Assembly: GCA_000002435.2 (NCBI GenBank)
Contig: CM018793.1
Source of the DNA: Giardia intestinalis
Lineage: Eukaryota
Reading direction: 5' to 3' (one strand)
DNA length: 64,000 bases
The position numbers and the translations under genes are program-made. Each line of letters opens with the position of its first letter. The first letter of the stretch is position 1. This document shows positions 5,781 through 16,794 of this stretch, piece after piece. The notes under the pieces were generated by a model that did no database searches, had not been told where the DNA came from, and was given only the letters and a program-made list of their open reading frames with translations.

Positions 5781-7817
5781 ATGCGGATCCGGAGGCTGCT
5801 GCAGGTGAGAGGGTCGGGTATCAGGTCGCCGCGGAAAATGGAAAGTGAATGTAAAAAATTACACATGGAGCCTCAAAGATTGTCCTTAGAGACATGGATT
5901 TTTCAGTTAGAGCAAGGGTATGATGAAGATCTTGCTAGTGTAGCACCAGAATATGTCAAGGCCAAAGGAGCTTCCGGGGAATCTAGCTTTTTACTCGCCT
6001 CTAACATGCGCGCATTTCGAGCTTTGAAATGCCTTCTTACTGCTCCACAGACTGCTCTATCACAAGATGAGCTAGAAACTATTCTCCGTACTACTATTTT
6101 CGAGGTGAATAATCGACTTGCCTTCAATTGTCTTCGTATTGTACTTGAGATAATAACTAACCAGGCTGAAGAACATGGAATCACTCTTCACTCGCATACT
6201 AGCGTACTGCAGGCACTCAAGATGGCAGAGACGCATGGGAACTATCGGGCGATGTTCTACCTTGCTTCCATTTTGGATGATGCACCTGCACTACTTCGAT
6301 ATTCCTATCTGTTCACAAAAGACCCACTGAGCTTACCAGTTCTTAAAAACTATGACTCAAAAGCCCAGTCTGTAGAGAAGGCTGAGGATCATCTCAACAA
6401 TTCTAAGTATCTCGCTAACGTACTTGAAAAGCTAGAACAGCCCGAGGATACTTCTACTGCCTATCAGCTTTCTCTTATTAATAGTGTATTATCGTTTTTG
6501 CAATCTATAATTGCGTGTCAGCAACCTTCTACCATATTCCCCAGAGTTGAAGAAGCCATTCATCAGCTACTGCAACGTGATTTGCCCGACACCCTAGGAA
6601 GAACCATCTTCTCTATAGTCTTATATTGCATACAAAGCCTGCATAAACGAGATAATATAGATAATAGTCAAATCACCACTACTAGCAACATCATGGATCC
6701 CCATATTTCCGTTGATACATTGCTTCAGTCTGACTCATTAAAAGATCAGCCATTCTCATGCACTGAGTCCTTCATCAATAAGAGAAGAGATGACAAGGGC
6801 ATCTTGTCTTACATAAAGACCCTTAACACTAAAATCTATACACATGAAGCAGAAATTCTACAATTACGGAAACAACTGGAGACGGTTAGATATAGACACC
6901 GGGAAGAGGCCGAGATCAATGGAAAGTTAAATACAGCCCTTTCTGAACAGTTAAAAGAGGAGATAGACAGGGCCATGATGCTGGAAAAGCAATCGTTGGA
7001 GAAAGATAAGGTGATTTTATCTATGCGTGAACTCTTAAAAGGCTGGATGAGGAACTTAAATACAGTACAGAGTAATGCAGATAGTAAAGCTAGTTGTGAA
7101 CTACTTCAAGATGGCAAGAATCTGTTGGGATACAATAGTGATGAGTTATTCGGCACCGGTACTAGTTTGAAGGAAAGTGCTGTGTTAGCAGAGAAGTACA
7201 TTGACTCTATGACGAGTAATCTTGCAGGTATTAACGATTCGCTGAAGAAACTTGACAATGAGAAGCAGTCCCTCTCTATGATGCAGAAGCACGTTCTTGG
7301 TCTGGAATATGAACAGGAGCAAATACTGAACAATAGAGATGACCTTAATACAGAGCTACTTGAAGCGGAGCTACGACACTATAGAAGGCTCTATTTCAGT
7401 CTAAAGGCACACTATGAAGCGATGGTAAACCTTTTACCAGGGGACGCAGCTGAATTGGCGAGCGATGTCCTAAATAACTTAATATTAGAAGGTAATGAAA
7501 GACATCTGGAATATTCTAGAGGTAGCAAAGACACTAGTGTTGAGCCGAGCGATGAACTAGGAGCATCTGGTCAATTATTTATGGATTGCAACTCTGCATG
7601 GAACGAACAAAACTCCACGTGGCGTAGATACATGAGTGATGGCGAATACCAACGCTATGTTGAACGTGCCGTGACTCCAACGGGCCTGTCCACAATCTTC
7701 CGGCATCAGACTGCGCCCGGCCCAGATTCTAAATCTGCCCAAATCCGGCCTTGGAGTGCAGTACTGCGTGGAGAGAACAAGGAAAGGAATAAAAGCGCTT
7801 CCAAAAGCTTCCACTGA
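5781..7817 (+). CDS. Hypothetical coiled-coil protein (678 aa as given). The start is uncertain and in-frame ATGs at 5838 and 5865 are better-placed candidates
   Basis: It is a long uninterrupted ORF with heptad-rich, E/K/Q/L-rich central and C-terminal regions. The ATG at 5865 sits in the AT-rich context 'gtaaaaaattacacATG' typical of diplomonad initiators. I recognise no enzymatic motif. Confidence 0.6.
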   Translation: MRIRRLLQVRGSGIRSPRKMESECKKLHMEPQRLSLETWIFQLEQGYDEDLASVAPEYVKAKGASGESSFLLASNMRAFRALKCLLTAPQTALSQDELETILRTTIFEVNNRLAFNCLRIVLEIITNQAEEHGITLHSHTSVLQALKMAETHGNYRAMFYLASILDDAPALLRYSYLFTKDPLSLPVLKNYDSKAQSVEKAEDHLNNSKYLANVLEKLEQPEDTSTAYQLSLINSVLSFLQSIIACQQPSTIFPRVEEAIHQLLQRDLPDTLGRTIFSIVLYCIQSLHKRDNIDNSQITTTSNIMDPHISVDTLLQSDSLKDQPFSCTESFINKRRDDKGILSYIKTLNTKIYTHEAEILQLRKQLETVRYRHREEAEINGKLNTALSEQLKEEIDRAMMLEKQSLEKDKVILSMRELLKGWMRNLNTVQSNADSKASCELLQDGKNLLGYNSDELFGTGTSLKESAVLAEKYIDSMTSNLAGINDSLKKLDNEKQSLSMMQKHVLGLEYEQEQILNNRDDLNTELLEAELRHYRRLYFSLKAHYEAMVNLLPGDAAELASDVLNNLILEGNERHLEYSRGSKDTSVEPSDELGASGQLFMDCNSAWNEQNSTWRRYMSDGEYQRYVERAVTPTGLSTIFRHQTAPGPDSKSAQIRPWSAVLRGENKERNKSASKSFH

Positions 7818-7853
7818 TTGAGTGGTACGTCTTCGAGTAGATTTTTTAAAGCC

Positions 7854-8909
7854 ATGAACTGTGAGGGCTGTGGTACTGGGACACCGATGATTAGGCACTC
7901 CATGACCCTTAAGCGCCTCTGCAGGAAGTGCTTTCTCCGTGCAATCGAAGATGAAGTTCAGCGAACGGTGGAGATGCACAGCCTGGTCCGTCCGGGCGAG
8001 AGCATCGCTCTTGGAGTGAGCGGAGGAAAAGACTCGAGTGTTATGCTTCATATTCTACACACCCTGCGGCTTCGTTGTCAGGATGTCTACGATGGTGTTC
8101 GCTTTGTTATGGTTGCAGTCAACGAAGGAATCCAAGGCTATCGCGGCGAGTCGCTAGCGTGTCTTCAGCGCCTCCATAAAAAGTATCCGTATGAGCTGGA
8201 GATAGTGGGCTTTGAAGAGCGATACGGACGTACGCTAGACCAACTTGTCAACACTGTGAACGGAAATTCATGCACTGATACATTTGCCCCACTTAAGGCC
8301 GATCTGGAGGACGTTAACGACACGGGCCGGCCACAGCCAACGGCGAAGACAGCAACTGCCTGCTCGTTCTGTGGTATCCTCCGACGAAATTCTCTTTCTT
8401 ACGGGAGTCTCCAGACACAATGTACAAAGGTGGCTACCGGGCACAATGCTGACGACAATGCCGAGACCGTTCTACTGAACTTAATCAGAGGTGACGCTGC
8501 AAAGCTAGTAAGGTGCAGCGAGCCATTATCTGACTTGAATCAAGGGGTGGCACGCATAAAGCCCCTCTGCAATATAGCACAGCGAGACATTGTCATATAC
8601 GCCCACCTACAACGCCTGGACTACTTTAGTGTGGAGTGTCCTTATGCAACAACGGCACTACGCGGTAAGCCAAGAAGCTTCCTAACCAACCTTTGTACCA
8701 GACCAGCGTACAGCGACGCGGCTCTTCGTATAATTCGGTCAACTCGGAAGCTGCGCCTTAAGACCACACATGAGACCCAGAAGCTCACTAGTCTTCATCT
8801 GTGCCCCTCGTGTCAGAGTCCTGTCTCCACAACTCGCTGCCAGTGCTGTGACATACGCACGGCAAAGACTGGGGACGACCTTAAGCGAGCCGCCAAGTGC
8901 AGGCCATAA
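7854..8909 (+). CDS. CTU1: Cytoplasmic tRNA 2-thiolation protein 1 (Ctu1/Ncs6/ATPBD3 family PP-loop ATPase)
   Basis: It has an N-terminal CxxC...CxxC zinc finger and the PP-loop SGGKDS. Blocks [29 protein letters not shown] and [18 protein letters not shown] align with human CTU1 blocks [29 protein letters not shown] and LYAHFRRLDYFSEECVYA. A C-terminal CPSC...CQCC finger is present. The ORF track begins at a TTG at 7818, and the first ATG is at 7854. Confidence 0.85.
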   Translation: [351 protein letters not shown]

Positions 8910-9039
8910 TCTAATCAGGGCGTCTAATTTACATTCGATTCACAATTGTTAACAGCTTACTCAAATGTTTACTATGGTTAGTATGATTAATATACTTAGT
9001 CTACGATCTTATGAATCAAGTAAACGCCGTCTTGTAAAA

Positions 9040-9061
9040 CGTACACCTGCAATAAAATAAA
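9040..9061 (+). promoter_or_regulatory. AT-rich initiator region directly upstream of the ATG at 9062 (diplomonad-type core promoter)
   Basis: The sequence 'aataaaataaaATG' abuts the start codon. Giardia promoters are short A/T-rich elements within about 50 bp of the ATG. Similar A-rich contexts lie upstream of 14875, 37682, 49907 and 62681. Confidence 0.4.
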
Positions 9062-10645
9062 ATGATCAATTTAAAGGACAAAGCAGAGCAACTGATAAAC
9101 GACTGGCTGGACCTGGACTTCTGGCCGGCCACTAGGGCCAAAGCACTGGAGATGCTCGCTAATGAGTCGTATGCCCAAATACAAAAAGACTTCGATCCAC
9201 GAAACAGGCTTGAGATACAATCTCATGGCCTTCAGGGGGATTATGGGCCCGGCTTCAATAAGCTTAACGAGCTTGTGATTGCTCAGACGGCGCAGTCAAT
9301 CTATTACTATTGTCTAAGAGTTATTGGAGAAACAGAACTCAAAATACACGGTATTGGAATAGGTTATGATTGGTCTCCACATGCCAAGGACTTTGCCAAG
9401 GTAAGCGCTGCGGTGTTCTTACTGTACGGGGTGCGGGTCTATATGGTCAGCGAGCCGGTATCCGCGTCATATGCTGAACACCTGAACAAGCATTACATGT
9501 GTGGGTGCGGATTTATGGCCACGGAAACACACATCTCGCGCACAGAGTGCCGGTATATTATCTACGGAATTGGCTATGGCTCTGCTCTTTCTGCGCCGCA
9601 CAGCACAAATGTGAGCGAAATGATTTCAGCAAGCAATAGCCACATTTTTGTCCCTCATCCGGGGCTCAAGTCACTTGACAAAGTTCTGGAAAAGGGGATC
9701 GAAACACGCCTTCTTGTAATGGTTGACCAGGAGCATGAGGTGTCAAAGGTCTATCATAAAAAGCTCAGGCTTCTGAAATATTTCGATCGAGAATATCGCG
9801 AAAAGACTAAGCGGAGCTTCCGGATAGGGTGTTTCCTAATAGGATTGTACGATATCTGCAAGGTGACCAATATTCTTCAGAATCTATTTCAGTTTTCGAC
9901 GGATGCAATACAGTCTCGTTTCGTCTTTCTTGAGAGTGTTCAATCTAATGCTGTGCCCCCAGAACAGTGCATTGCTACCGCTTGCAAACAAGCTAATATA
10001 ATCAATTCCCGTGCAGAAGCCGACCGGGTACCTCCAATTAAGATTATCATATCTATAGATATTAACGCAGAGGCGATTTGTTTAGCAGAACTGATTGATT
10101 CCCCTTCATCCTCTGCACATTGCCAACCACAGTGGCACATCTATCGCAAGGAAGATATCAACACCTTTGCCATGAATTGGTGTGTAGAAAACCTCAATGG
10201 AAATCCCACGGTTCTGGCACGTCTGAAGAAGCACAGACTTACCTATGGATGCAGCACATATCCACCTAGTCACTCTATACAGACTGACAGTCCGAAACTC
10301 ATAGCAGCTCAATGCAGTGGTGCAGCTTGCAAGAGTGACTCTAGCAATAGCAGACACCCATGGGGCCTTTCCAGAGAAGAAGAGGAGGAGACTGAATGCG
10401 GCGCGGTGTGTGGGCGGTACCAAGGATTCCAGAACACAGCTGAGGAAATTATCACAGCAAGAGACGGAGCAATAACATTCGGCGTTCTCGCAGAGCTACT
10501 AATAGATCTGTATGAATTTTCTGGAACTGGAATTAACATTAGGAGGCCAGCTAACGAGCAACGCAGCTCCAATACGTTTGGTGGATATCTTAGCAGCTTT
10601 ACCCAGGGTATCACGCCACAAGCATGCCAAGTTGAAAGCGTTTAG
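9062..10645 (+). CDS. Phosphoglucomutase-2/phosphopentomutase (PGM2) family protein with substituted catalytic motifs, a probable pseudo-phosphomutase
   Basis: The N-terminus aligns block by block with PGM2. 'RLEIQSHGLQGDYGPGFNKLNELVIAQTAQS' matches '[31 protein letters not shown]', and 'GIGIGYD...VRVYMV' matches 'GIVISFDAR...IPVYLF'. The phosphoserine loop TASHNP is replaced by TETHIS, and the metal-binding DPDADR by DINAEA. Confidence 0.55.
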   Translation: MINLKDKAEQLINDWLDLDFWPATRAKALEMLANESYAQIQKDFDPRNRLEIQSHGLQGDYGPGFNKLNELVIAQTAQSIYYYCLRVIGETELKIHGIGIGYDWSPHAKDFAKVSAAVFLLYGVRVYMVSEPVSASYAEHLNKHYMCGCGFMATETHISRTECRYIIYGIGYGSALSAPHSTNVSEMISASNSHIFVPHPGLKSLDKVLEKGIETRLLVMVDQEHEVSKVYHKKLRLLKYFDREYREKTKRSFRIGCFLIGLYDICKVTNILQNLFQFSTDAIQSRFVFLESVQSNAVPPEQCIATACKQANIINSRAEADRVPPIKIIISIDINAEAICLAELIDSPSSSAHCQPQWHIYRKEDINTFAMNWCVENLNGNPTVLARLKKHRLTYGCSTYPPSHSIQTDSPKLIAAQCSGAACKSDSSNSRHPWGLSREEEEETECGAVCGRYQGFQNTAEEIITARDGAITFGVLAELLIDLYEFSGTGINIRRPANEQRSSNTFGGYLSSFTQGITPQACQVESV

Positions 10646-10900
10646 ATAAGGACCTAAATCTCCAATGATTCCTTTTGAAAAGGAAAACAACCCCTGTCAG
10701 TTAAGTTTGGCAGACTAATATGCTGTAATGAGAGGAAGTATGCTACTTACTGTGGTCCAGCATGACTCTCACAGGGTGATGCAGGGACAATTCTTTTGTG
10801 GCGTTCAGCCCGTTCTTGAAAACAGCTTACAGCCAATTTTCTTTAACAAGCAAAGTTTAGAATAATTTATTGAATAAAAGATATGTTGCAGAGTGCTTAC

Positions 10901-12922
10901 CTAATCATGAGGAACTTTAGAGAGTCGCTGTTGGCGGAGAAACTGGAGTTGGGCACGCTTGGCTTCACGGCTACTTTGGTGACCGTTGCTACAAGGTCCG
11001 ATTGCAGATGCCAGGAGAAGCTCTCGCTTGTGTCTCTCGAGAAGTGCTGAAGACTCGTCGTGATACATGGACATGGCAGCCTTGATGTCCTGCTCTGTAT
11101 CCGTAAAGATCTCTATTCCCAATTGCATCTCGGCAGTGAATTCGTTGGCTATGGTCAAGATCGCGTCCTTATCTTGAAGAAGTTGCTGCCTGAGAACAGT
11201 GAACTTCAATGCATGCTTCTTCTTAAACTCCACCAGCTCTGTCGCATGGCGAGCCTTGATTGCGGTTAGGTCCTTTCGAGGGGTCGCTGTTCTGTCCTGT
11301 GTGCACAAACTTGGAGGAAGAGCCGTTGCCAGCTCAGGAGGAAGAATGTCATGTACATGGAGCTTACTGTGTGTAGTCCCTGTATTGATAGTAAACGAAT
11401 GGTTGTCTTTCTCAAGCGGGTAGACATGGTCATTCTTGAGAGTTTTGACATCCGGATCTATGCTACTTATGCTTATGTCATTAAGGTTCGTGATCGTTTT
11501 CTTCTGCGTCAGATCTTCACTGTCGAGGGAGTTTGCATGAATCTGTGGGGTTTTAGAATGATGAAATCGTTCAGGAAGTTCCATGCGTGGAGTTCTTGGC
11601 GTCAGACAAGTAACTTTTGGGTTTTTGGGGCTTCGATCGACAAACAGCAAAAAGATCGAGGATCTTCTGTCAGTCTGTCGCGCACCGCGCTGCACATTAT
11701 CTTCATCTAAAAGTGCTAACTGAGACATCTGGCTCATGGCTTCCACAGAGCAAAAGCTAAGTCCGCCAGCAACCTCGTCTACGGATTGCTCAGTTGCAGT
11801 ACAAGAGCTGGCAGATGCAGCGCTTGCAGCGAGAAGACGTGTGCTAGAAATGAGGCATCCAACCTCGTCTCTGAATGCATAAACATCGTCCTGATTAGGA
11901 ATCGAAAACCGCAGTGTCACATTTTGGTCCAGATTACTTTGCTGGGCTTCACGAAGCTTAACATGAAAGGGGGAATTGATGGAGAGAGAGGACATGCTAA
12001 TTCCAATTATAAGTAGACACTTGCGGTAGCTGAGTTGCATCTTACTGAGAATATCATAAGGAAGACGTATTAGCCCTATGTTCGGAAGCATAGTACAGAG
12101 AGACATACGCCCACAAAATATTATGCCTTCGCCTAACGAAATTGACAGGTTCGTATTATCATAGCTTATTGTGCCACCAGAATAGAGAAGATAGCGCACC
12201 TTAAAGACATCCCCAGAGCCTATAGTCCCAAACTCATCATTCATAGCACAGATGAGAGTGTTTATGGTGCGTAGAAAGTTCATTTTTGTCAAGGAATTGA
12301 AGTGCATCTGTATAGCCGGCGAGAAGGCGATAGCACTAACGTCAGGTATGCGATTCCTTATTCGAAGAAGAATCTCAACCAAAAGAATTTGAGTAGAATA
12401 GTCTGCACATGCTCGTAGCTCTTGCCGAATCATGTCTGCCAACTCTCGTAGCACTTCCGTAGAGAACTGGACACCATGCTTTAATATCTGGGCGATGAGA
12501 AAAGCGTATCCTGCTTTAATGTAGTCCTTAGACGCCTGTGCCACAAATGACCCTAGCGCAGGAAGAAGTTGGGAGACTACCTTTTTAAGCTGTGGTGAAC
12601 AAGATACCATTGCTTCCATGACCTTAAAGATGGGAGGCACGCTATAGACAGCATTGGCCTCGCTTAGATTTAATGCAGAGCTGCAAAAGGAAATGAACTG
12701 ATCATTCTCAACGAACTCTCCTGCAAATGCTGGATTCAGCCCGAGAGTGGTTAGATACTCGGTCACCCCAGGATATGTTTCAGGGTCTGAAAGCATCTTC
12801 CTGGCTCTGCCATATGCCATCAGGCTTTTGGATGCCGAAAGAACATGTGGGGTGTCAACAAGAATCTTTTCAACCTCATTAAAATTACCAGCTTCAAGCT
12901 CCTTGATAAAGCGCAATGACAT
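10901..12922 (-). CDS. Hypothetical protein (673 aa)
   Basis: It is a long ORF with protein-like composition and no motif I can assign. Its C-terminal third is predicted helical and charged. Confidence 0.55.
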   Translation of the reverse strand: MSLRFIKELEAGNFNEVEKILVDTPHVLSASKSLMAYGRARKMLSDPETYPGVTEYLTTLGLNPAFAGEFVENDQFISFCSSALNLSEANAVYSVPPIFKVMEAMVSCSPQLKKVVSQLLPALGSFVAQASKDYIKAGYAFLIAQILKHGVQFSTEVLRELADMIRQELRACADYSTQILLVEILLRIRNRIPDVSAIAFSPAIQMHFNSLTKMNFLRTINTLICAMNDEFGTIGSGDVFKVRYLLYSGGTISYDNTNLSISLGEGIIFCGRMSLCTMLPNIGLIRLPYDILSKMQLSYRKCLLIIGISMSSLSINSPFHVKLREAQQSNLDQNVTLRFSIPNQDDVYAFRDEVGCLISSTRLLAASAASASSCTATEQSVDEVAGGLSFCSVEAMSQMSQLALLDEDNVQRGARQTDRRSSIFLLFVDRSPKNPKVTCLTPRTPRMELPERFHHSKTPQIHANSLDSEDLTQKKTITNLNDISISSIDPDVKTLKNDHVYPLEKDNHSFTINTGTTHSKLHVHDILPPELATALPPSLCTQDRTATPRKDLTAIKARHATELVEFKKKHALKFTVLRQQLLQDKDAILTIANEFTAEMQLGIEIFTDTEQDIKAAMSMYHDESSALLERHKRELLLASAIGPCSNGHQSSREAKRAQLQFLRQQRLSKVPHD

Positions 12923-13000
12923 TCCCTGCGGATATTTTATTATTAATGGAGCAGGGATTGACGCCGGGAGTCACCACAGGGAATCCAGAATTTAAAGTTC

Positions 13001-14497
13001 TCAAGGCGGTTCAGATGGAAAGTAGTCGGCAAGAAGCTGGTTTGCCATCTCTGAGAGCTCGATGTTTGGAGAACATGTCAAATCATGTATGATAGTTAAT
13101 GTATCTAGGCCTATGAAATGCTCAGTTATCAATCCATCGCTTTCTTCAATGAGACAGCGGATTAGGTGAAGGCCGGCTAAAAGTGTTCTATCCTGAGATG
13201 TGCGCAACGACATCCGCAACCCGTGGTCGAGAGCACGTATTTCGTCAACATCGTAATCTAGTGACACCAGCGGTGACTGTGAGAGTCTTCCCCATATAAG
13301 AATAGAACTGTGGACAATCTTTGTAGAGCTAGTGCACAACCCTTGCATGATCACTTTTCGCAAATTATGCCCCATAAGGACTGATAACATAAGATCTACC
13401 AATGACAAAGATTGAAGAATATTGTAGATTATCTCGCGAACCTTTAGGTTAGAAACAAGCACACTATTGAACAAAAACGGCACGAACCGTGAGTTAGCAT
13501 GATGAATGGCCAAGGCCGTCTGCTCATCGTATGTAAGGTTACGAAGGAAGTATAACCCCGGTCTACAGCTTGCTAAGGGAAGCTTGTACAAATAATTAAT
13601 GACATGATTAGCAACTCCTTGCTCAAGAAGGTGTGTGCGGATAGATGCAACGGTTGGTAGATTGTACGAGGATGTGATAAAGTGATAGATCCAGCAGCAA
13701 TCATCAAAAATAACGGACACAGTTGTCGAGTACATCACGTCAATAACGGCAGGGATGATTGGAAGAAGGAGCTGGTGGCACTCGTCCGTTTCAATATGCT
13801 GTGCTAAGTTACCCACAGCATAAATCACGTGGTGTTTAATCCGCATGGGGAAGGCGGGCTTGATCAAAATTCCGTGAAATGTAGCAATAAAGCCGGTTTC
13901 TATGGCAGTGAAAAACAACGCTTCGTCCTTAACATCAAAAAGGAACTGCAAACAGAGAAGAATTGCACCCAGCAAATCTTCATCTAATACTTCATCAGAA
14001 GCCACTTGATCCAGGAGTAGCTTCAGCACAGGGAGAATATTGCAATTAAAAAGAGTAGAAAGAGAGCTGCCATTAGCTGCCAAACAGTTGATACATTGGA
14101 GGCAGTGGAGTCTTATGGTTCGATCTGGAGAAGCTAGTTGGCGGATAACCCCATTGATTAGTGTGGGAAAGTGTAGAAGAAGAGACACGGCTGTTTCATT
14201 GCCGAGCTCTATAACAAGTTCAGCAAGAGAGTTGACAAGAGGCTCGTAGACATCAGTGCCGTGGCGAGAAGGATCGAAGACAGGAGAGGCCATTATTGGA
14301 TTGCACATAGACAATAGGGTAGCTTCATCGAGTTGCGTTAACTGAGTATTGGAAGAAGTAGACGCTCCCTTGGGATGCTTAGAAAAACCATCGCCAGTAG
14401 AGTCAGGGAGGCCTGAAAAAGGCTGTGCTTGAGTTTCCTTCCGCAGATCTCTACGGTGAAAAAGGTCTCGAGAATCTGCAAGGTATATCCGCCGCAT
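13001..14497 (-). CDS. Hypothetical protein with ARM/HEAT-like helical repeats (ORF extends to 14533, and an in-frame ATG at 14497 avoids overlap with the upstream ORF)
   Basis: It is a long ORF with repeated leucine-rich helical segments, for example LPVLKLLLDQVASDEVLDEDLLGAILLCLQFL. It has a low-complexity N-terminus. The start is ambiguous. Confidence 0.5.
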   Translation of the reverse strand: MRRIYLADSRDLFHRRDLRKETQAQPFSGLPDSTGDGFSKHPKGASTSSNTQLTQLDEATLLSMCNPIMASPVFDPSRHGTDVYEPLVNSLAELVIELGNETAVSLLLHFPTLINGVIRQLASPDRTIRLHCLQCINCLAANGSSLSTLFNCNILPVLKLLLDQVASDEVLDEDLLGAILLCLQFLFDVKDEALFFTAIETGFIATFHGILIKPAFPMRIKHHVIYAVGNLAQHIETDECHQLLLPIIPAVIDVMYSTTVSVIFDDCCWIYHFITSSYNLPTVASIRTHLLEQGVANHVINYLYKLPLASCRPGLYFLRNLTYDEQTALAIHHANSRFVPFLFNSVLVSNLKVREIIYNILQSLSLVDLMLSVLMGHNLRKVIMQGLCTSSTKIVHSSILIWGRLSQSPLVSLDYDVDEIRALDHGLRMSLRTSQDRTLLAGLHLIRCLIEESDGLITEHFIGLDTLTIIHDLTCSPNIELSEMANQLLADYFPSEPP

Positions 14498-14507
14498 AAA
14501 ACCAGTT

Positions 14508-14813
14508 CTACTTCCGTTTTTTAGTGTAATCAATTTTGCTATTATAACAATCCAAACAATGATAGCTATCTCCTGAAAGCAAGGAGCAAAGCATGCACAC
14601 TCTTCGAGAACAAACAGCGCAAATTTCTGAACAACTAGTGCAATGAATCATACTGCAAGACGGGCAAGCCTTTTTAGATTGAGCAGATTCACCACAGACT
14701 CGGCAGCGCCAAACAAATAGCGCCTCGTCAGTACGCATTAGTGAGTCGTCAAATTCACTGGAGTTACGGCACATTTCTGCGATAAGACCGTCTGCTCCAG
14801 ACCTGCGCCTCAT
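14508..14813 (-). CDS. Small CxxC-rich putative zinc-binding protein (101 aa)
   Basis: Six CxxC pairs (CRVC, CPSC, CTSC, CAVC, CMLC, CLDC) sit within 60 residues. The ORF shares a 61-bp AT-rich divergent region with the kinesin gene at 14875. It could also be an upstream ORF of the 13001 gene. Confidence 0.35.
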   Translation of the reverse strand: MRRRSGADGLIAEMCRNSSEFDDSLMRTDEALFVWRCRVCGESAQSKKACPSCSMIHCTSCSEICAVCSRRVCMLCSLLSGDSYHCLDCYNSKIDYTKKRK

Positions 14814-14874
14814 TTCAATCTCACTATTTCGTTTTTTGAAGAGGCAAAAACTACAGTGAAATTTTGAAGCTTCG

Positions 14875-16794
14875 ATGACTTCTCCATTAACAACTGAGGA
14901 GCTCCAGGCATCCCAGCTACAGGGCAGTCAGAGTGTGTCCAACCGTATCCGTGTTATAGCAAGAGTTCGACCCTTTCTCCCTGGAGAAGTAGTACCAAAC
15001 CCGGCATGCATCACGGCATCAAACAACGTAATTACGGCCCGTGATCCCACCAACTCAATGGTAGTCACATCTCATCCATTTGATATTGCGCTGGGGCCGT
15101 CTTCCACCCAAGATAACGCTTATGAAACCATATCTAATGACATCTATCGCGTGATGTGTGGCGTTCCTATGCTTCTTTTGGCATATGGAGTCACATCTGC
15201 AGGAAAGACATACACTCTTTTTGGAGAAGGAAAGGACACGGGCCTCTATGGGCGGGCAGTCAACGATTTGTATCGGCTCATTGACATCTCAGCCATTGCT
15301 AAGTCTGCACTGGTGAGCATTTCAGTGGTACAAATATATATGAATAACGTCATGGATCTGCTGAATAAAGGAGAGCCTCTCAAACTCCACGGCGCAGGGA
15401 CGGATCCTCTTCCCGGAAGAAAATGGATAGATGTCGATTCTGCAGCCAGCTGCTTGTCTCTGACTCGACGTGCCTTACAAAACAGGGAGATGTCATCTAC
15501 AGCACTGAACACAATGTCTTCGAGATCACACTGTATCGTTTTCCTTCGAATTTTAGATACTGCCACGGGCCAGGCATCAGGGCTGACAGTCGTCGACTTA
15601 GCTGGTAGTGAACCACACATGCCCGGGGCATCTAAACAGGTTCAGCAGGAATCCAGCTTCATCCGTACGTCGTTGCTAATGCTCGATCGGGCTATGAAGG
15701 ACCTGAAGAGCCTCAACTGCACACGGACGACCTCTGTGAGTTTCCGCTCTTCTCCTCTCACTATGGCTCTGCGTCCATATCTGCAGCCTGCAAGCGATTT
15801 CTCCCTTCCGTGCAACGCAGTTATCTTTCTCAATCTTCACGGAAAGGTAGATGGGTTTTTCAGTAACAAAGAGACACTCCAACTCGGTCTCGTCGCCAAG
15901 TCGGTTAAGAATTATTCTAAAACAGCTTCTCGCCTCGGCGTGCTTAGCACAACGGCGGCGTCCATGGCTGGGTCCATGGGCAAGTCCCTTTCGCGTTCTT
16001 CTCGCGCTCGCCCCACCGATATTGCTATAGAGGATGGGGGCAGTCTTCCTAGTCCAGAAATTACTGGCACTATTTATGCTACAGCAGATACAAACATTAC
16101 GCTATCTCAATGCAGTAGTGCACAGGACATTACTCGCTTCCCTAATTGTCCTACTTCTCTTGTGATTCAAGGAGACAGCATACTTATACCAATCACGTAC
16201 TGGAACAGCATTCTAACAGAGTTTGAAAACCTGGCGACTGCATTGGCCAATGCAAGCGGGGATATTCAGGAGGAGCTTCAAAATGCCCGCCAAGAGGCAG
16301 TCGCCGAAATGGCACAGCTCATGGAACTCAACATTGCGAAGGAACGTGAAACTCTGTTAACCGATATCGTTGAAAGGGACGCAACTATTAACAGCCTTCA
16401 GCAAGAACTTGTCATAGTGATGGCAAACAATGATACACTATCAAAGCAGCTATATGTCACTAAGACAAAGCTTAACAGTTTTCAGGCGACAGTTGATTCA
16501 CAGCAGAGCAGTCAACGCGGCACATCGAAATTTGGCGATCCTGTATTCAGCACATCTATCGATAATAATCTATTAGATCAACTAAGATCGTACAGGGAGG
16601 AGAACTATCAACTTAAGCAGCGCCTATCAGAACTAGAGAGCCAGTACAGACGCTCCGTCTCTCAGTTGGACTACATCAAAGCAGAGCTGCAGCGTGCATC
16701 CACCGATAGCACGAGGCTGTCCATACCCTCTAACTTAATGGGGCTTCCAGACACAATGACCAGTACTCCTCGAGATCTCTCTAAGAGCGAGTAA
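14875..16794 (+). CDS. Kinesin-like motor protein with an N-terminal motor and a C-terminal coiled-coil
   Basis: The kinesin motifs appear in order. These are IRVIARVRPF (beta1), the P-loop GVTSAGKTYTL, switch I NTMSSRSHCIVFL and switch II VVDLAGSEP. The C-terminal half is coiled-coil (QELVIVMANNDTLSKQLYVTKTKLN...). Confidence 0.8.
   Translation: MTSPLTTEELQASQLQGSQSVSNRIRVIARVRPFLPGEVVPNPACITASNNVITARDPTNSMVVTSHPFDIALGPSSTQDNAYETISNDIYRVMCGVPMLLLAYGVTSAGKTYTLFGEGKDTGLYGRAVNDLYRLIDISAIAKSALVSISVVQIYMNNVMDLLNKGEPLKLHGAGTDPLPGRKWIDVDSAASCLSLTRRALQNREMSSTALNTMSSRSHCIVFLRILDTATGQASGLTVVDLAGSEPHMPGASKQVQQESSFIRTSLLMLDRAMKDLKSLNCTRTTSVSFRSSPLTMALRPYLQPASDFSLPCNAVIFLNLHGKVDGFFSNKETLQLGLVAKSVKNYSKTASRLGVLSTTAASMAGSMGKSLSRSSRARPTDIAIEDGGSLPSPEITGTIYATADTNITLSQCSSAQDITRFPNCPTSLVIQGDSILIPITYWNSILTEFENLATALANASGDIQEELQNARQEAVAEMAQLMELNIAKERETLLTDIVERDATINSLQQELVIVMANNDTLSKQLYVTKTKLNSFQATVDSQQSSQRGTSKFGDPVFSTSIDNNLLDQLRSYREENYQLKQRLSELESQYRRSVSQLDYIKAELQRASTDSTRLSIPSNLMGLPDTMTSTPRDLSKSE

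What the first reader, a model, noticed from the sequence alone, without database searches (positions are those of the whole stretch)
9062..10645. PGM2-family phosphomutase homologue with every catalytic signature replaced (candidate pseudoenzyme)
The N-terminal 200 residues align block by block with phosphoglucomutase-2/phosphopentomutase. The phosphate-binding FGTAGLRG loop reads IQSHGLQG. The phosphoserine loop TASHNP reads TETHIS, so the catalytic Ser is replaced by Thr. The Mg-binding DPDADR reads DINAEA. The ORF is nonetheless intact at 527 aa and sits behind a canonical AT-rich initiator. This suggests a non-catalytic, regulatory or structural repurposing of a sugar-phosphate mutase fold.
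Basis: seen in the sequence. Interest (0 to 1): 0.6.

Follow-up and report, generated by a model that had tools for sequence, protein, structure and literature searches.

The report
Giardia phosphoglucomutase copy without catalytic parts
Giardia carries a second, fast-evolving copy of its phosphoglucomutase gene that has lost every part needed for the normal reaction yet is still kept by selection, so it is probably a repurposed "dead enzyme" that databases mislabel as phosphomannomutase-2.

Summary
ORF 9062-10645 (+) encodes 527 aa and is Giardia intestinalis WB protein XP_001708115.1 / A8BC13, annotated "Phosphomannomutase-2". It is a true PGM2-type homologue. Pfam domain I scores above threshold. 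It is 35% identical (E 6e-104) over residues 1-494 to the intact 655-aa paralogue GL50803_17254 in the same genome.

Alignment with 117 intact enzymes fixes the register:
- FGTAGLRG is IQSHGLQG.
- TASHNP is TETHIS.
- DPDADR is DINAEA.
- The sugar loop YEESIGY is RYQGFQN.
- Domain IV, which carries the RPSGTEPK phosphate loop, is absent, with no remnant downstream.
- Only 29 of 118 near-invariant enzyme columns survive.

The gene is not decaying:
- Synteny is conserved in five G. duodenalis lineages.
- No allele carries a premature stop.
- dN/dS is about 0.10, similar to the neighbouring genes.
- The replacement residues are themselves invariant within the family.

A tree places the family inside Giardia, next to the intact G. 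intestinalis enzyme. This points to a recent duplication followed by rapid divergence.

Best reading: a lineage-specific pseudoenzyme. Its role is unknown.

Main caveat: Mitra et al. 2010, which I could not read, reported PGM and PMM activity for a "deeply divergent" Giardia PGM. By elimination, that protein may be this ORF.

The parts
9042..9061 (+). A+T-rich stretch directly upstream of the start codon (TACACCTGCAATAAAATAAA). It resembles a Giardia-type initiator region.
   Evidence: Read directly from the sequence: 75% A+T. Promoter function was not tested.
9062..10645 (+). Complete coding sequence, 527 aa plus stop. It is G. intestinalis WB XP_001708115.1 / UniProt A8BC13, annotated 'Phosphomannomutase-2'.
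   Evidence: ORF listing. Exact-sequence look-up. dN/dS 0.099 for assemblage A vs E. No premature stop in about 20 alleles.
9062..9205 (+). N-terminal helical extension typical of PGM2-type enzymes (aa 1-48, WL.LD..P.TR motif retained).
   Evidence: Alignments A2 and A3. W15 is retained. pLDDT is above 90.
9206..9661 (+). Domain I (aa 49-200). This is the most constrained part of the protein.
   Evidence: Pfam PGM_PMM_I covers aa 55-157. omega is 0.05, and 59% of columns are invariant across five lineages.
9215..9238 (+). IQSHGLQG in place of the FGTAGLRG loop. The conserved Arg is Gln58 in all six family sequences compared.
9521..9559 (+). TETHIS..ECRYI in place of the phosphoserine loop TASHNP..DNGYK. 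The catalytic Ser is Thr156 in all six family sequences compared.
   Evidence: Ser is present in 100% of the 117 intact enzymes aligned.
9662..10096 (+). Domain II (aa 201-345). The fold is retained, but the MWGVG and PNPEE motifs are replaced by IGLYD and ATACK.
   Evidence: pLDDT is mostly 80-95. omega is 0.12.
10058..10075 (+). DINAEA in place of the metal-binding loop DPDADR. The three Asp ligands are now Asp/Asn/Glu, and the Arg is Ala.
10097..10531 (+). Remnant of domain III (aa 346-490). The first strand and two helices and the last helix (aa 469-487) are retained.
   Evidence: BLASTP to P0026 and to P0304 runs to aa 485-494. Secondary structure and confidence come from the AF2 model.
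10250..10456 (+). Degenerate core of domain III (aa 397-465). It is rich in Ser, Glu, Ala, Cys, Thr and Gly, varies by indels between lineages, and is predicted with low confidence. It holds the positions of STVSSK, LTGFKW and the sugar-binding loop (RYQGFQN at 10415-10435 instead of YEESIGY).
   Evidence: pLDDT is below 50. The aa 346-440 region has 15% invariant columns and omega about 0.2. Within-assemblage polymorphism clusters here. Motif alignment.
10532..10645 (+). Short, poorly conserved C-terminal tail (aa 491-527) and stop codon. It stands where domain IV (about 150 aa, with the RPSGTEPK phosphate-binding loop) would be.
   Evidence: All five orthologues end here. tblastn with the C-terminal 170 aa of the intact paralogue finds nothing in the window. 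8% of columns are invariant. pLDDT is below 50.

Best explanation
The ORF is a paralogue of the PGM2-type phosphoglucomutase, so far found only in the Giardia duodenalis species complex. It arose by duplication of the gene for the intact enzyme (GL50803_17254) and then diverged very fast.

It lost all four elements that define catalysis in alpha-D-phosphohexomutases:
- the phosphoserine;
- the three-aspartate metal site with its arginine;
- the sugar-binding loop;
- the whole of domain IV, with its phosphate-binding loop.

What remains is the domain I-II scaffold and the edges of domain III. It therefore most likely cannot carry out the canonical phosphosugar mutase cycle. It is probably kept for a non-catalytic role carried by the strongly constrained domains I-II. 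That role would be binding of a partner protein or a ligand, by analogy with the inactive vertebrate paralogue PGM5/aciculin.

Shown here: the homology, the motif losses, the domain loss, the origin by duplication, and purifying selection.

Inferred: absence of mutase activity, and the binding or scaffolding role.
For: Homology and descent:
- Pfam domain I scores above the gathering threshold.
- The protein is 35% identical to the intact WB paralogue P0304 over 498 aa, E 6e-104.
- In an NJ tree of 431 columns, the family groups with the G. intestinalis enzyme in 93.5% of bootstraps, and with G. muris added in 100%.

Loss of function elements:
- Alignment with 117 intact enzymes shows R58Q, S156T, D335N, D337E, R338A and EE453-454YQ.
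- It also shows loss of MWGVG, PNPEE, STVSSK and LTGFKW.
- Only 29 of 118 near-invariant columns are kept.
- Domain IV is absent in all five lineages and leaves no remnant in the window.
- PMC5570346 states that TASH, the three Asp residues, the sugar loop and the PO4 site define the superfamily, and that they are kept even in inactive PGM5.

Retention:
- Synteny is conserved in five lineages.
- dN/dS is 0.099 for A vs E, against 0.076-0.157 for four neighbouring genes.
- Domain I has omega 0.05.
- The replacement residues are invariant within the family.
- About 20 alleles carry no premature stop.

Redundancy: the intact paralogue is abundant in proteomes.

Faster evolution: A vs B identity is 69%, against 89% for the intact paralogue.
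Against: - No biochemical, expression or localisation data for this gene could be obtained.
- Thr can in principle accept a phosphoryl group, and Asp/Asn/Glu could still bind a metal. His157 and Asp333 are retained.
- Mitra et al. 2010 (title and citing papers only) report that a 'deeply divergent' Giardia PGM has PGM and PMM activity. Giardia appears to have only two genes labelled as PGM or PMM, so that protein may be this ORF. That identification is my inference and is not verified.
- The AF2 model was built from an alignment dominated by real enzymes. Its resemblance to the fold is therefore not independent evidence.
- The proposed binding role has no direct support.
Confidence: 0.65

Rival explanations
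1. It is an active, highly divergent phosphoglucomutase/phosphomannomutase, the 'Gl-PGM2' of Mitra et al. 2010. It would use Thr156 as phosphoryl carrier and an Asp/Asn/Glu metal site, bind substrate without the canonical sugar loop or domain IV, and supply mannose-1-phosphate in a parasite that has no HAD-type PMM.
For: - The title and citing descriptions of Mitra et al. say that a divergent Giardia PGM converts mannose phosphates.
- Only two Giardia genes carry the 'Phosphomannomutase-2' or 'phosphoglucomutase' names, and one of them is the canonical 17254.
- The best Giardia match to EC 5.4.2.2 enzymes is 17254 at 310 bits, so no PGM1-type gene exists.
- The very long branch would look 'deeply divergent' in a tree.
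- Thr156, His157 and Asp333 are invariant or nearly so.
- Purifying selection is strong over the former active-site loops.
Against: - All four family-defining elements are lost, including the entire phosphate-binding domain.
- None of the 117 intact relatives has Thr at the phosphoserine position.
- The region that should hold the sugar loop is the least conserved and is predicted with low confidence.
- The identity of Gl-PGM2 with this ORF is unverified.
- From general knowledge: recombinant preparations from E. coli can carry host Pgm or ManB, and the other superfamily member (phosphoacetylglucosamine mutase) is known in other organisms to handle glucose and mannose phosphates.
Confidence: 0.13
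2. It is a neo-functionalised enzyme with a different chemistry. It would use the remodelled but invariant cleft residues (His55, Gln58, Glu155, Thr156, His157, Asp333, Asn335, Glu337), for example as a phosphatase, a phosphotransferase or a hydrolase acting on a non-sugar substrate.
For: - The replacement residues are invariant across lineages that are only 53-70% identical overall.
- Domain I, including these loops, has the lowest omega, 0.05.
- A polar His/Glu/Thr/Asp/Asn cluster is compatible with catalysis or metal binding (inference).
Against: - No match to any other enzyme family in Pfam, NCBIfam or PDB sequence searches.
- Invariance is equally expected for a binding surface or for structural packing.
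- There is no precedent in this superfamily that I know of.
Confidence: 0.12
3. It is a decaying gene copy with no function, an intact ORF by chance or a recent pseudogene.
For: - It evolves about three times faster than the intact paralogue.
- The C-terminal third is poorly conserved and varies by indels.
- It was not detected in the secretome proteomics tables that I could search.
Against: - dN/dS is about 0.10, like the neighbouring genes.
- The ORF is intact, at the same syntenic position and about the same length, in five lineages whose synonymous sites are saturated.
- None of about 20 alleles has a premature stop.
- 59% of domain I columns are invariant.
Confidence: 0.03

Closest known systems
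GL50803_17254 (XP_001708370.1 / E2RU18), the intact Giardia PGM2-type phosphoglucomutase, and PGM2-type enzymes in general (phosphopentomutase/PGM2, PGM2L1)
   Same: - Common descent: 35% identity over residues 1-494, and sister position in the tree.
- Same N-terminal helical extension and the same domain I-II fold.
- Shared Giardia-specific stretches (YYYCLR, NWC.EN, ELLIDLYE).
   Different: - It lacks the phosphoserine, two of the three metal-ligand Asp residues and the following Arg, the sugar-binding loop, LTGFKW, and the whole of domain IV.
- It is 128 aa shorter.
- It evolves about three times faster.
PGM5 / aciculin, the enzymatically inactive vertebrate paralogue of PGM1
   Same: Both are lineage-restricted duplicates of a phosphoglucomutase. 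PGM5 lacks mutase activity and is retained for a structural, protein-binding role (PMC5570346, PMC7761743).
   Different: - PGM5 derives from PGM1, not PGM2.
- PGM5 keeps all four domains, TASH, the three Asp residues, and the sugar and phosphate loops, and it still binds glucose phosphates.
- The Giardia protein has lost all of these.
- The origins are independent.
Second half of the Trichuris trichiura 'phosphoglucomutase 2' tandem fusion (P0027, CDW56233.1)
   Same: It is a PGM2-type copy with eroded motifs (FGISGIKA, TGSHDS, DPEADH, RQGGTEKR) next to an intact copy.
   Different: It keeps the Ser, all four domains and most of the motif residues. It is fused to the intact copy rather than encoded separately. 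I did not analyse it further.

Membership tests
alpha-D-phosphohexomutase superfamily (by descent and fold) | Significant sequence match to the PGM_PMM domain I profile | tested here: met
   PF02878: 27.8 bits against a gathering score of 22.5, E 2.2e-6, aa 55-157. The orthologues P0004 and P0005 also match.
alpha-D-phosphohexomutase superfamily (by descent and fold) | Domains II and III present | tested here: inconclusive
   There are no Pfam hits for PF02879 or PF02880. Pairwise homology to the intact paralogue does run through residue 494 (E 6e-104). AF2 models domain II with confidence. The core of domain III (aa 397-465) is degenerate and has pLDDT below 50.
alpha-D-phosphohexomutase superfamily (by descent and fold) | Domain IV with the phosphate-binding loop (RxSGTEPK in PGM2 types) | tested here: not met
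   The protein ends about 40 aa after the last helix of domain III in all five lineages. No remnant exists in the window.
alpha-D-phosphohexomutase enzymes (catalytic competence) | Catalytic phosphoserine in TASH(N)P | tested here: not met
   The loop reads TETHIS. Ser is Thr156 in all six family sequences compared, while Ser is present in 100% of 117 intact relatives. [quoted passage not shown]
alpha-D-phosphohexomutase enzymes (catalytic competence) | Three aspartate metal ligands followed by Arg (DPDADR in PGM2 types) | tested here: not met
   The loop reads DINAEA: Asp333 is kept, and the other positions are Asn335, Glu337 and Ala338.
alpha-D-phosphohexomutase enzymes (catalytic competence) | Sugar-binding loop with the conserved Glu (F/Y-E-E-x-I-G) | tested here: not met
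   RYQGFQN stands opposite YEESIGY. E453 is Tyr and E454 is Gln, both invariant in the family.
alpha-D-phosphohexomutase enzymes (catalytic competence) | Mutase activity on sugar phosphates | not testable with these tools
   This needs an enzyme assay. The only possibly relevant publication (Mitra et al. 2010) is not held.
PGM2 sub-family (phosphopentomutase / PGM2 / PGM2L1 type) | Closest relatives and tree position lie within PGM2-type proteins | tested here: met
   The best hits of the profile search are about 600-aa PGM2-type proteins. The family is nested within the fornicate/Giardia PGM2 clade with 100% bootstrap.
Pseudoenzymes of the PGM family (PGM5-like) | Lack of catalytic activity together with evolutionary retention | tested here: inconclusive
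   Retention is shown (dN/dS about 0.10, synteny). Lack of activity is inferred from the motif and domain loss only.

The most novel reading that the evidence does not exclude
This ORF is the 'deeply divergent' Gl-PGM2 and truly catalyses PGM and PMM reactions. It would then be a three-domain phosphohexomutase that works with a threonine phosphoryl carrier, an Asp/Asn/Glu metal site, no canonical sugar loop and no phosphate-binding domain. That would be a new catalytic solution in a superfamily whose four active-site elements are regarded as universal. It would also be the sole source of mannose-1-phosphate in Giardia, and so a parasite-specific drug target.
Probability: 0.1. Interest if true: 0.85.

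Novelty: new variant of a known kind. Interest (0 to 1): 0.45.

Why it matters
Giardia has no conventional (HAD-type) phosphomannomutase, yet it needs mannose-1-phosphate for GPI anchors. The database label "Phosphomannomutase-2" on this gene, and possibly a published activity, suggest that this protein fills the gap.

The sequence evidence says it cannot work by the known mechanism. There are two possibilities:
- The annotation, and perhaps the assignment of PMM activity, is wrong. The real source of PMM activity would then have to be sought in GL50803_17254 or in the phosphoacetylglucosamine mutase.
- The protein is a mechanistically unprecedented mutase.

It is also a clean, recent and datable example of how an enzyme duplicate becomes a pseudoenzyme: loss of a whole domain, followed by fixation of new invariant residues in the former active site. 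It occurs in a parasite already known for large families of catalytically dead kinases (general knowledge, not checked here).

Tried and rejected
- Structure prediction from the six-sequence family alignment gave pLDDT 32 and was discarded. A 123-sequence alignment was needed.
- Sequence searches of the PDB, with the protein and with the family profile, found no phosphohexomutase at E<=1. NCBIfam found nothing. Both reflect the divergence and are not evidence against homology.
- The idea that domain IV is hidden by a frameshift or a missed exon was rejected. There is no tblastn signal anywhere in the window, only 255 nt separate the stop from the next gene, and all five orthologues stop at the same place.
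- The decaying-pseudogene idea was rejected by the dN/dS analysis.
- I tried to date the duplication by synteny in G. muris. The tRNA-thiolation neighbour sits in a rearranged locus there, with no relative of this gene or of its flanking genes, so synteny is uninformative.
- I looked for transcript-sized contigs as a proxy for expression. There were none; all contigs are genomic.
- The 497-aa cluster member is only an alternative start call at Met31.
- Mitra et al. 2010 could not be opened by PMC id, PubMed id or DOI. Citing papers give no accession numbers.
- Searches for A8BC13 and XP_001708115 in the literature found nothing.
- The AFDB fold library was not available.
- I considered whether the many invariant cysteines (CGC, CGAxC) mark a new metal site. 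Several of them (Cys84, Cys147, Cys149, Cys374 and probably Cys450) are inherited from the intact Giardia enzyme, while others (Cys257, Cys308, Cys354) are new. I did not pursue this.
Full report
**1. What is at the coordinates**

The window is Giardia intestinalis (duodenalis) WB C6. ORF 9062..10645 on the + strand starts with ATG and encodes 527 aa. It is identical to XP_001708115.1 / KAE8305195.1 / UniProt A8BC13, annotated "Phosphomannomutase-2".

**2. Is it a phosphohexomutase homologue?**

Yes.

- Pfam finds only domain I (PF02878), but above the curated threshold: 27.8 against 22.5 bits, E 2.2e-6.
- NCBIfam finds nothing. PDB sequence searches find no phosphohexomutase. This shows how divergent the protein is.
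- An exhaustive profile search with the six-member family alignment finds 792 proteins at E<=1e-3. Almost all are PGM2-type proteins of about 600 aa that match only residues 1-190 of the query.
- One hit, P0026 (640 aa), matches residues 4-476 at E 1.6e-70. P0026 has all four Pfam domains and every canonical motif.
- Its relatives include the G. muris "Phosphoglucomutase" (P0191) and a cluster that contains the G. intestinalis WB protein XP_001708370.1 / E2RU18 (P0304, 655 aa).
- Proteomics tables identify P0304 as GL50803_17254 on chromosome 4. It is an abundant protein that is also labelled "Phosphomannomutase-2".
- Our protein is 35% identical to this intact paralogue over 498 residues, E 6e-104. 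The alignment ends at residue 494 of the paralogue, which is the last helix of domain III.

**3. The register of the motifs, and what else is lost**

I aligned our protein with the intact Giardia and fornicate enzymes (A2, 17 sequences) and with 117 intact PGM2-type enzymes (A3).

| Element in intact enzymes | Our family |
|---|---|
| FGTAGLRG | IQSHGLQG (Arg is Gln58) |
| TASHNP..DNGYK | TETHIS..ECRYI (catalytic Ser is Thr156) |
| MWGVG | IGLYD |
| PNPEE | ATACK |
| DPDADR | DINAEA (Asp/Asn/Glu, Arg is Ala) |
| STVSSK, LTGFKW | degenerate |
| Sugar-binding loop YEESIGY | RYQGFQN |
| Domain IV (about 150 aa, with RPSGTEPK) | absent |

- Of the 118 columns that are at least 93% conserved in the intact enzymes, only 29 are kept in all six family sequences.
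- No remnant of domain IV exists in any frame of the window. Only 255 nt separate the stop codon from the next gene.
- All five orthologues stop at the same place.
- PMC5570346 names the phosphoserine (TASH), the three-Asp metal loop, the sugar loop and the domain-4 phosphate site as the four elements that define the superfamily. It notes that they are conserved in all five human paralogues, including the inactive PGM5.

**4. Structure**

A model from the shallow family alignment was useless (pLDDT 32). With the 123-sequence alignment, the model reaches pLDDT 77 and pTM 0.80.

- Residues 1-396 and the helix 469-487 are confident.
- Residues 397-465 have pLDDT below 50. This region is rich in Ser, Glu, Ala, Cys, Thr and Gly, varies by indels, and would hold the domain III sheet and the sugar loop.
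- The tail, residues 494-527, also has pLDDT below 50.
- Foldseek against the PDB returns alpha-D-phosphohexomutases as the 45 best matches.

The alignment that drove the model consists mostly of real enzymes. This confirms consistency with the fold and is not independent proof of it.

**5. Is it a live gene?**

Yes.

- Orthologues exist in assemblage E (P15, 88% identity), in assemblage B (GS, 69%) and in two further unnamed lineages (58% and 53%). I suspect the unnamed lineages are the dog assemblages C and D, but this is unverified.
- All lie in the same gene order: a roughly 650-aa gene, the PP-loop tRNA-thiolation gene, this gene, then genes of about 680 aa and 498 aa on the other strand. 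A kinesin gene follows wherever the contig extends that far; the locus for the 58% lineage is only 4 kb and shows just the upstream genes.
- Nei-Gojobori dN/dS is 0.099 for the least saturated pair (A vs E). The four neighbouring genes give 0.076-0.157.
- Domain I has omega 0.05. Residues 346-440 have omega about 0.2.
- The residues that replaced the catalytic ones are themselves invariant within the family.
- About 20 isolate alleles have no premature stop and no change at these positions. Polymorphism clusters in residues 395-426.
- The gene does evolve about three times faster than its intact paralogue. A vs B identity is 69% against 89%.

**6. Origin**

I built a neighbour-joining tree on 431 well-aligned columns with 200 bootstraps.

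- The family is monophyletic (1.0).
- It is sister to the intact G. intestinalis enzyme (0.935).
- G. muris lies outside that pair (1.0).
- The whole group lies inside the clade of Giardia-like and fornicate PGM2 enzymes.

The exhaustive search found no G. muris member of the family. The G. muris locus around the tRNA-thiolation gene is rearranged and contains nothing related. The simplest history is a duplication in the G. duodenalis lineage after the split from G. muris, followed by rapid divergence. An unannotated G. muris copy, or a long-branch effect on the 0.935 node, cannot be excluded.

**7. How it most likely works**

The canonical cycle needs four things:

- a phosphoserine;
- a Mg2+ ion held by three aspartates;
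- a sugar loop that lets the bisphosphate intermediate flip;
- a mobile domain IV that clamps the substrate phosphate.

All four are gone, and a fully competent paralogue is highly expressed in the same cell. I therefore read this protein as a pseudoenzyme, with confidence 0.65. In this reading the conserved domain I-II scaffold is kept for binding, and the former domain III core has become a variable, probably flexible segment.

The closest known kind is PGM5/aciculin. It is an inactive PGM1 paralogue with a structural, protein-binding role. It keeps all four elements and still binds substrate. The Giardia protein is an independent and much more radical case derived from PGM2.

What it binds is unknown. 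This step is inference only.

**8. The main caveat**

Mitra et al. 2010 (Glycobiology 20:1233) is not held in the library. Its title, and the way others cite it, say that Giardia has a canonical PGM and a "deeply divergent" PGM that also converts mannose phosphates.

- GL50803_17254 is named as having PGM activity.
- Its 310-bit best match to EC 5.4.2.2 enzymes argues that Giardia has no PGM1-type gene.
- By elimination, I estimate about 70% that the divergent protein in that paper is this ORF.

If so, there are two possibilities. The protein may be an unprecedented mutase (I give about 0.1-0.13). Otherwise the reported activity came from something else. Host enzyme carry-over is one possibility. 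Another is that the cellular PMM activity belongs to 17254 or to the phosphoacetylglucosamine mutase, which handles glucose and mannose phosphates in trypanosomes.

Either outcome matters for how Giardia makes mannose-1-phosphate.

**9. Verdict**

- It is a new variant of a known kind (an inactive phosphoglucomutase paralogue) in an annotated gene whose database name is probably wrong.
- Interest is moderate (0.45), and high only if the catalytic reading proved true.

Noticed in passing
P0027 (CDW56233.1, Trichuris trichiura 'phosphoglucomutase 2', 1214 aa); not in the window: This protein is a head-to-tail fusion of two PGM2 copies. The first copy has canonical motifs. The second has eroded ones (FGISGIKA, TGSHDS, DPEADH, WEEALGY, RQGGTEKR). 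It may be a second, independent case of a degenerating PGM2 duplicate, or it may be an annotation fusion.
   Followed up: no
P0026, P0189, P0190 (Logan/JGI contigs; not in the window): These are three unnamed intact PGM2-type proteins, 53-61% identical to the G. muris and G. intestinalis enzymes. In the tree they branch just outside those two. They probably come from unsequenced Giardia-like diplomonads present in public sequencing runs.
   Followed up: partly
window 7818-8909 (+): The upstream neighbour is a PP-loop ATPase, a cytoplasmic tRNA 2-thiolation protein (Ctu1-like). The mechanical ORF starts at a TTG at 7818. Orthologues suggest that the real start is a downstream ATG, giving MNCEGCG.... 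The preceding 678-aa ORF ends at 7817, so the two genes abut with no spacer if the TTG were used.
   Followed up: partly
L007 (G. muris CM016928.1, 392647-413639) compared with window 5781-16794: Gene order around the tRNA-thiolation gene is completely different in G. muris: a DEAD helicase upstream, and NifU followed by genes without Pfam matches downstream. None of the four G. duodenalis neighbours (the 678-aa, PGM-like, 673-aa and 510-aa ORFs) has a detectable relative in that 21-kb locus. The flanking genes of 678, 673 and 510 aa have no Pfam match.
   Followed up: partly
window 10373-10396 and alignment columns about 425-445 of A1: An acidic run REEEEETE and the preceding SSNSRHPWGL segment are present only in assemblages A and E. 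They are replaced by a deletion of about 10 residues in the other three lineages. This sits inside the region that AF2 predicts with low confidence.
   Followed up: no
window 10106-10423 (-) and 10309-10614 (-): Two antisense ORFs of 105 and 101 aa lie inside the gene. I took them to be mechanical by-products of the sense coding sequence and did not examine them.
   Followed up: no
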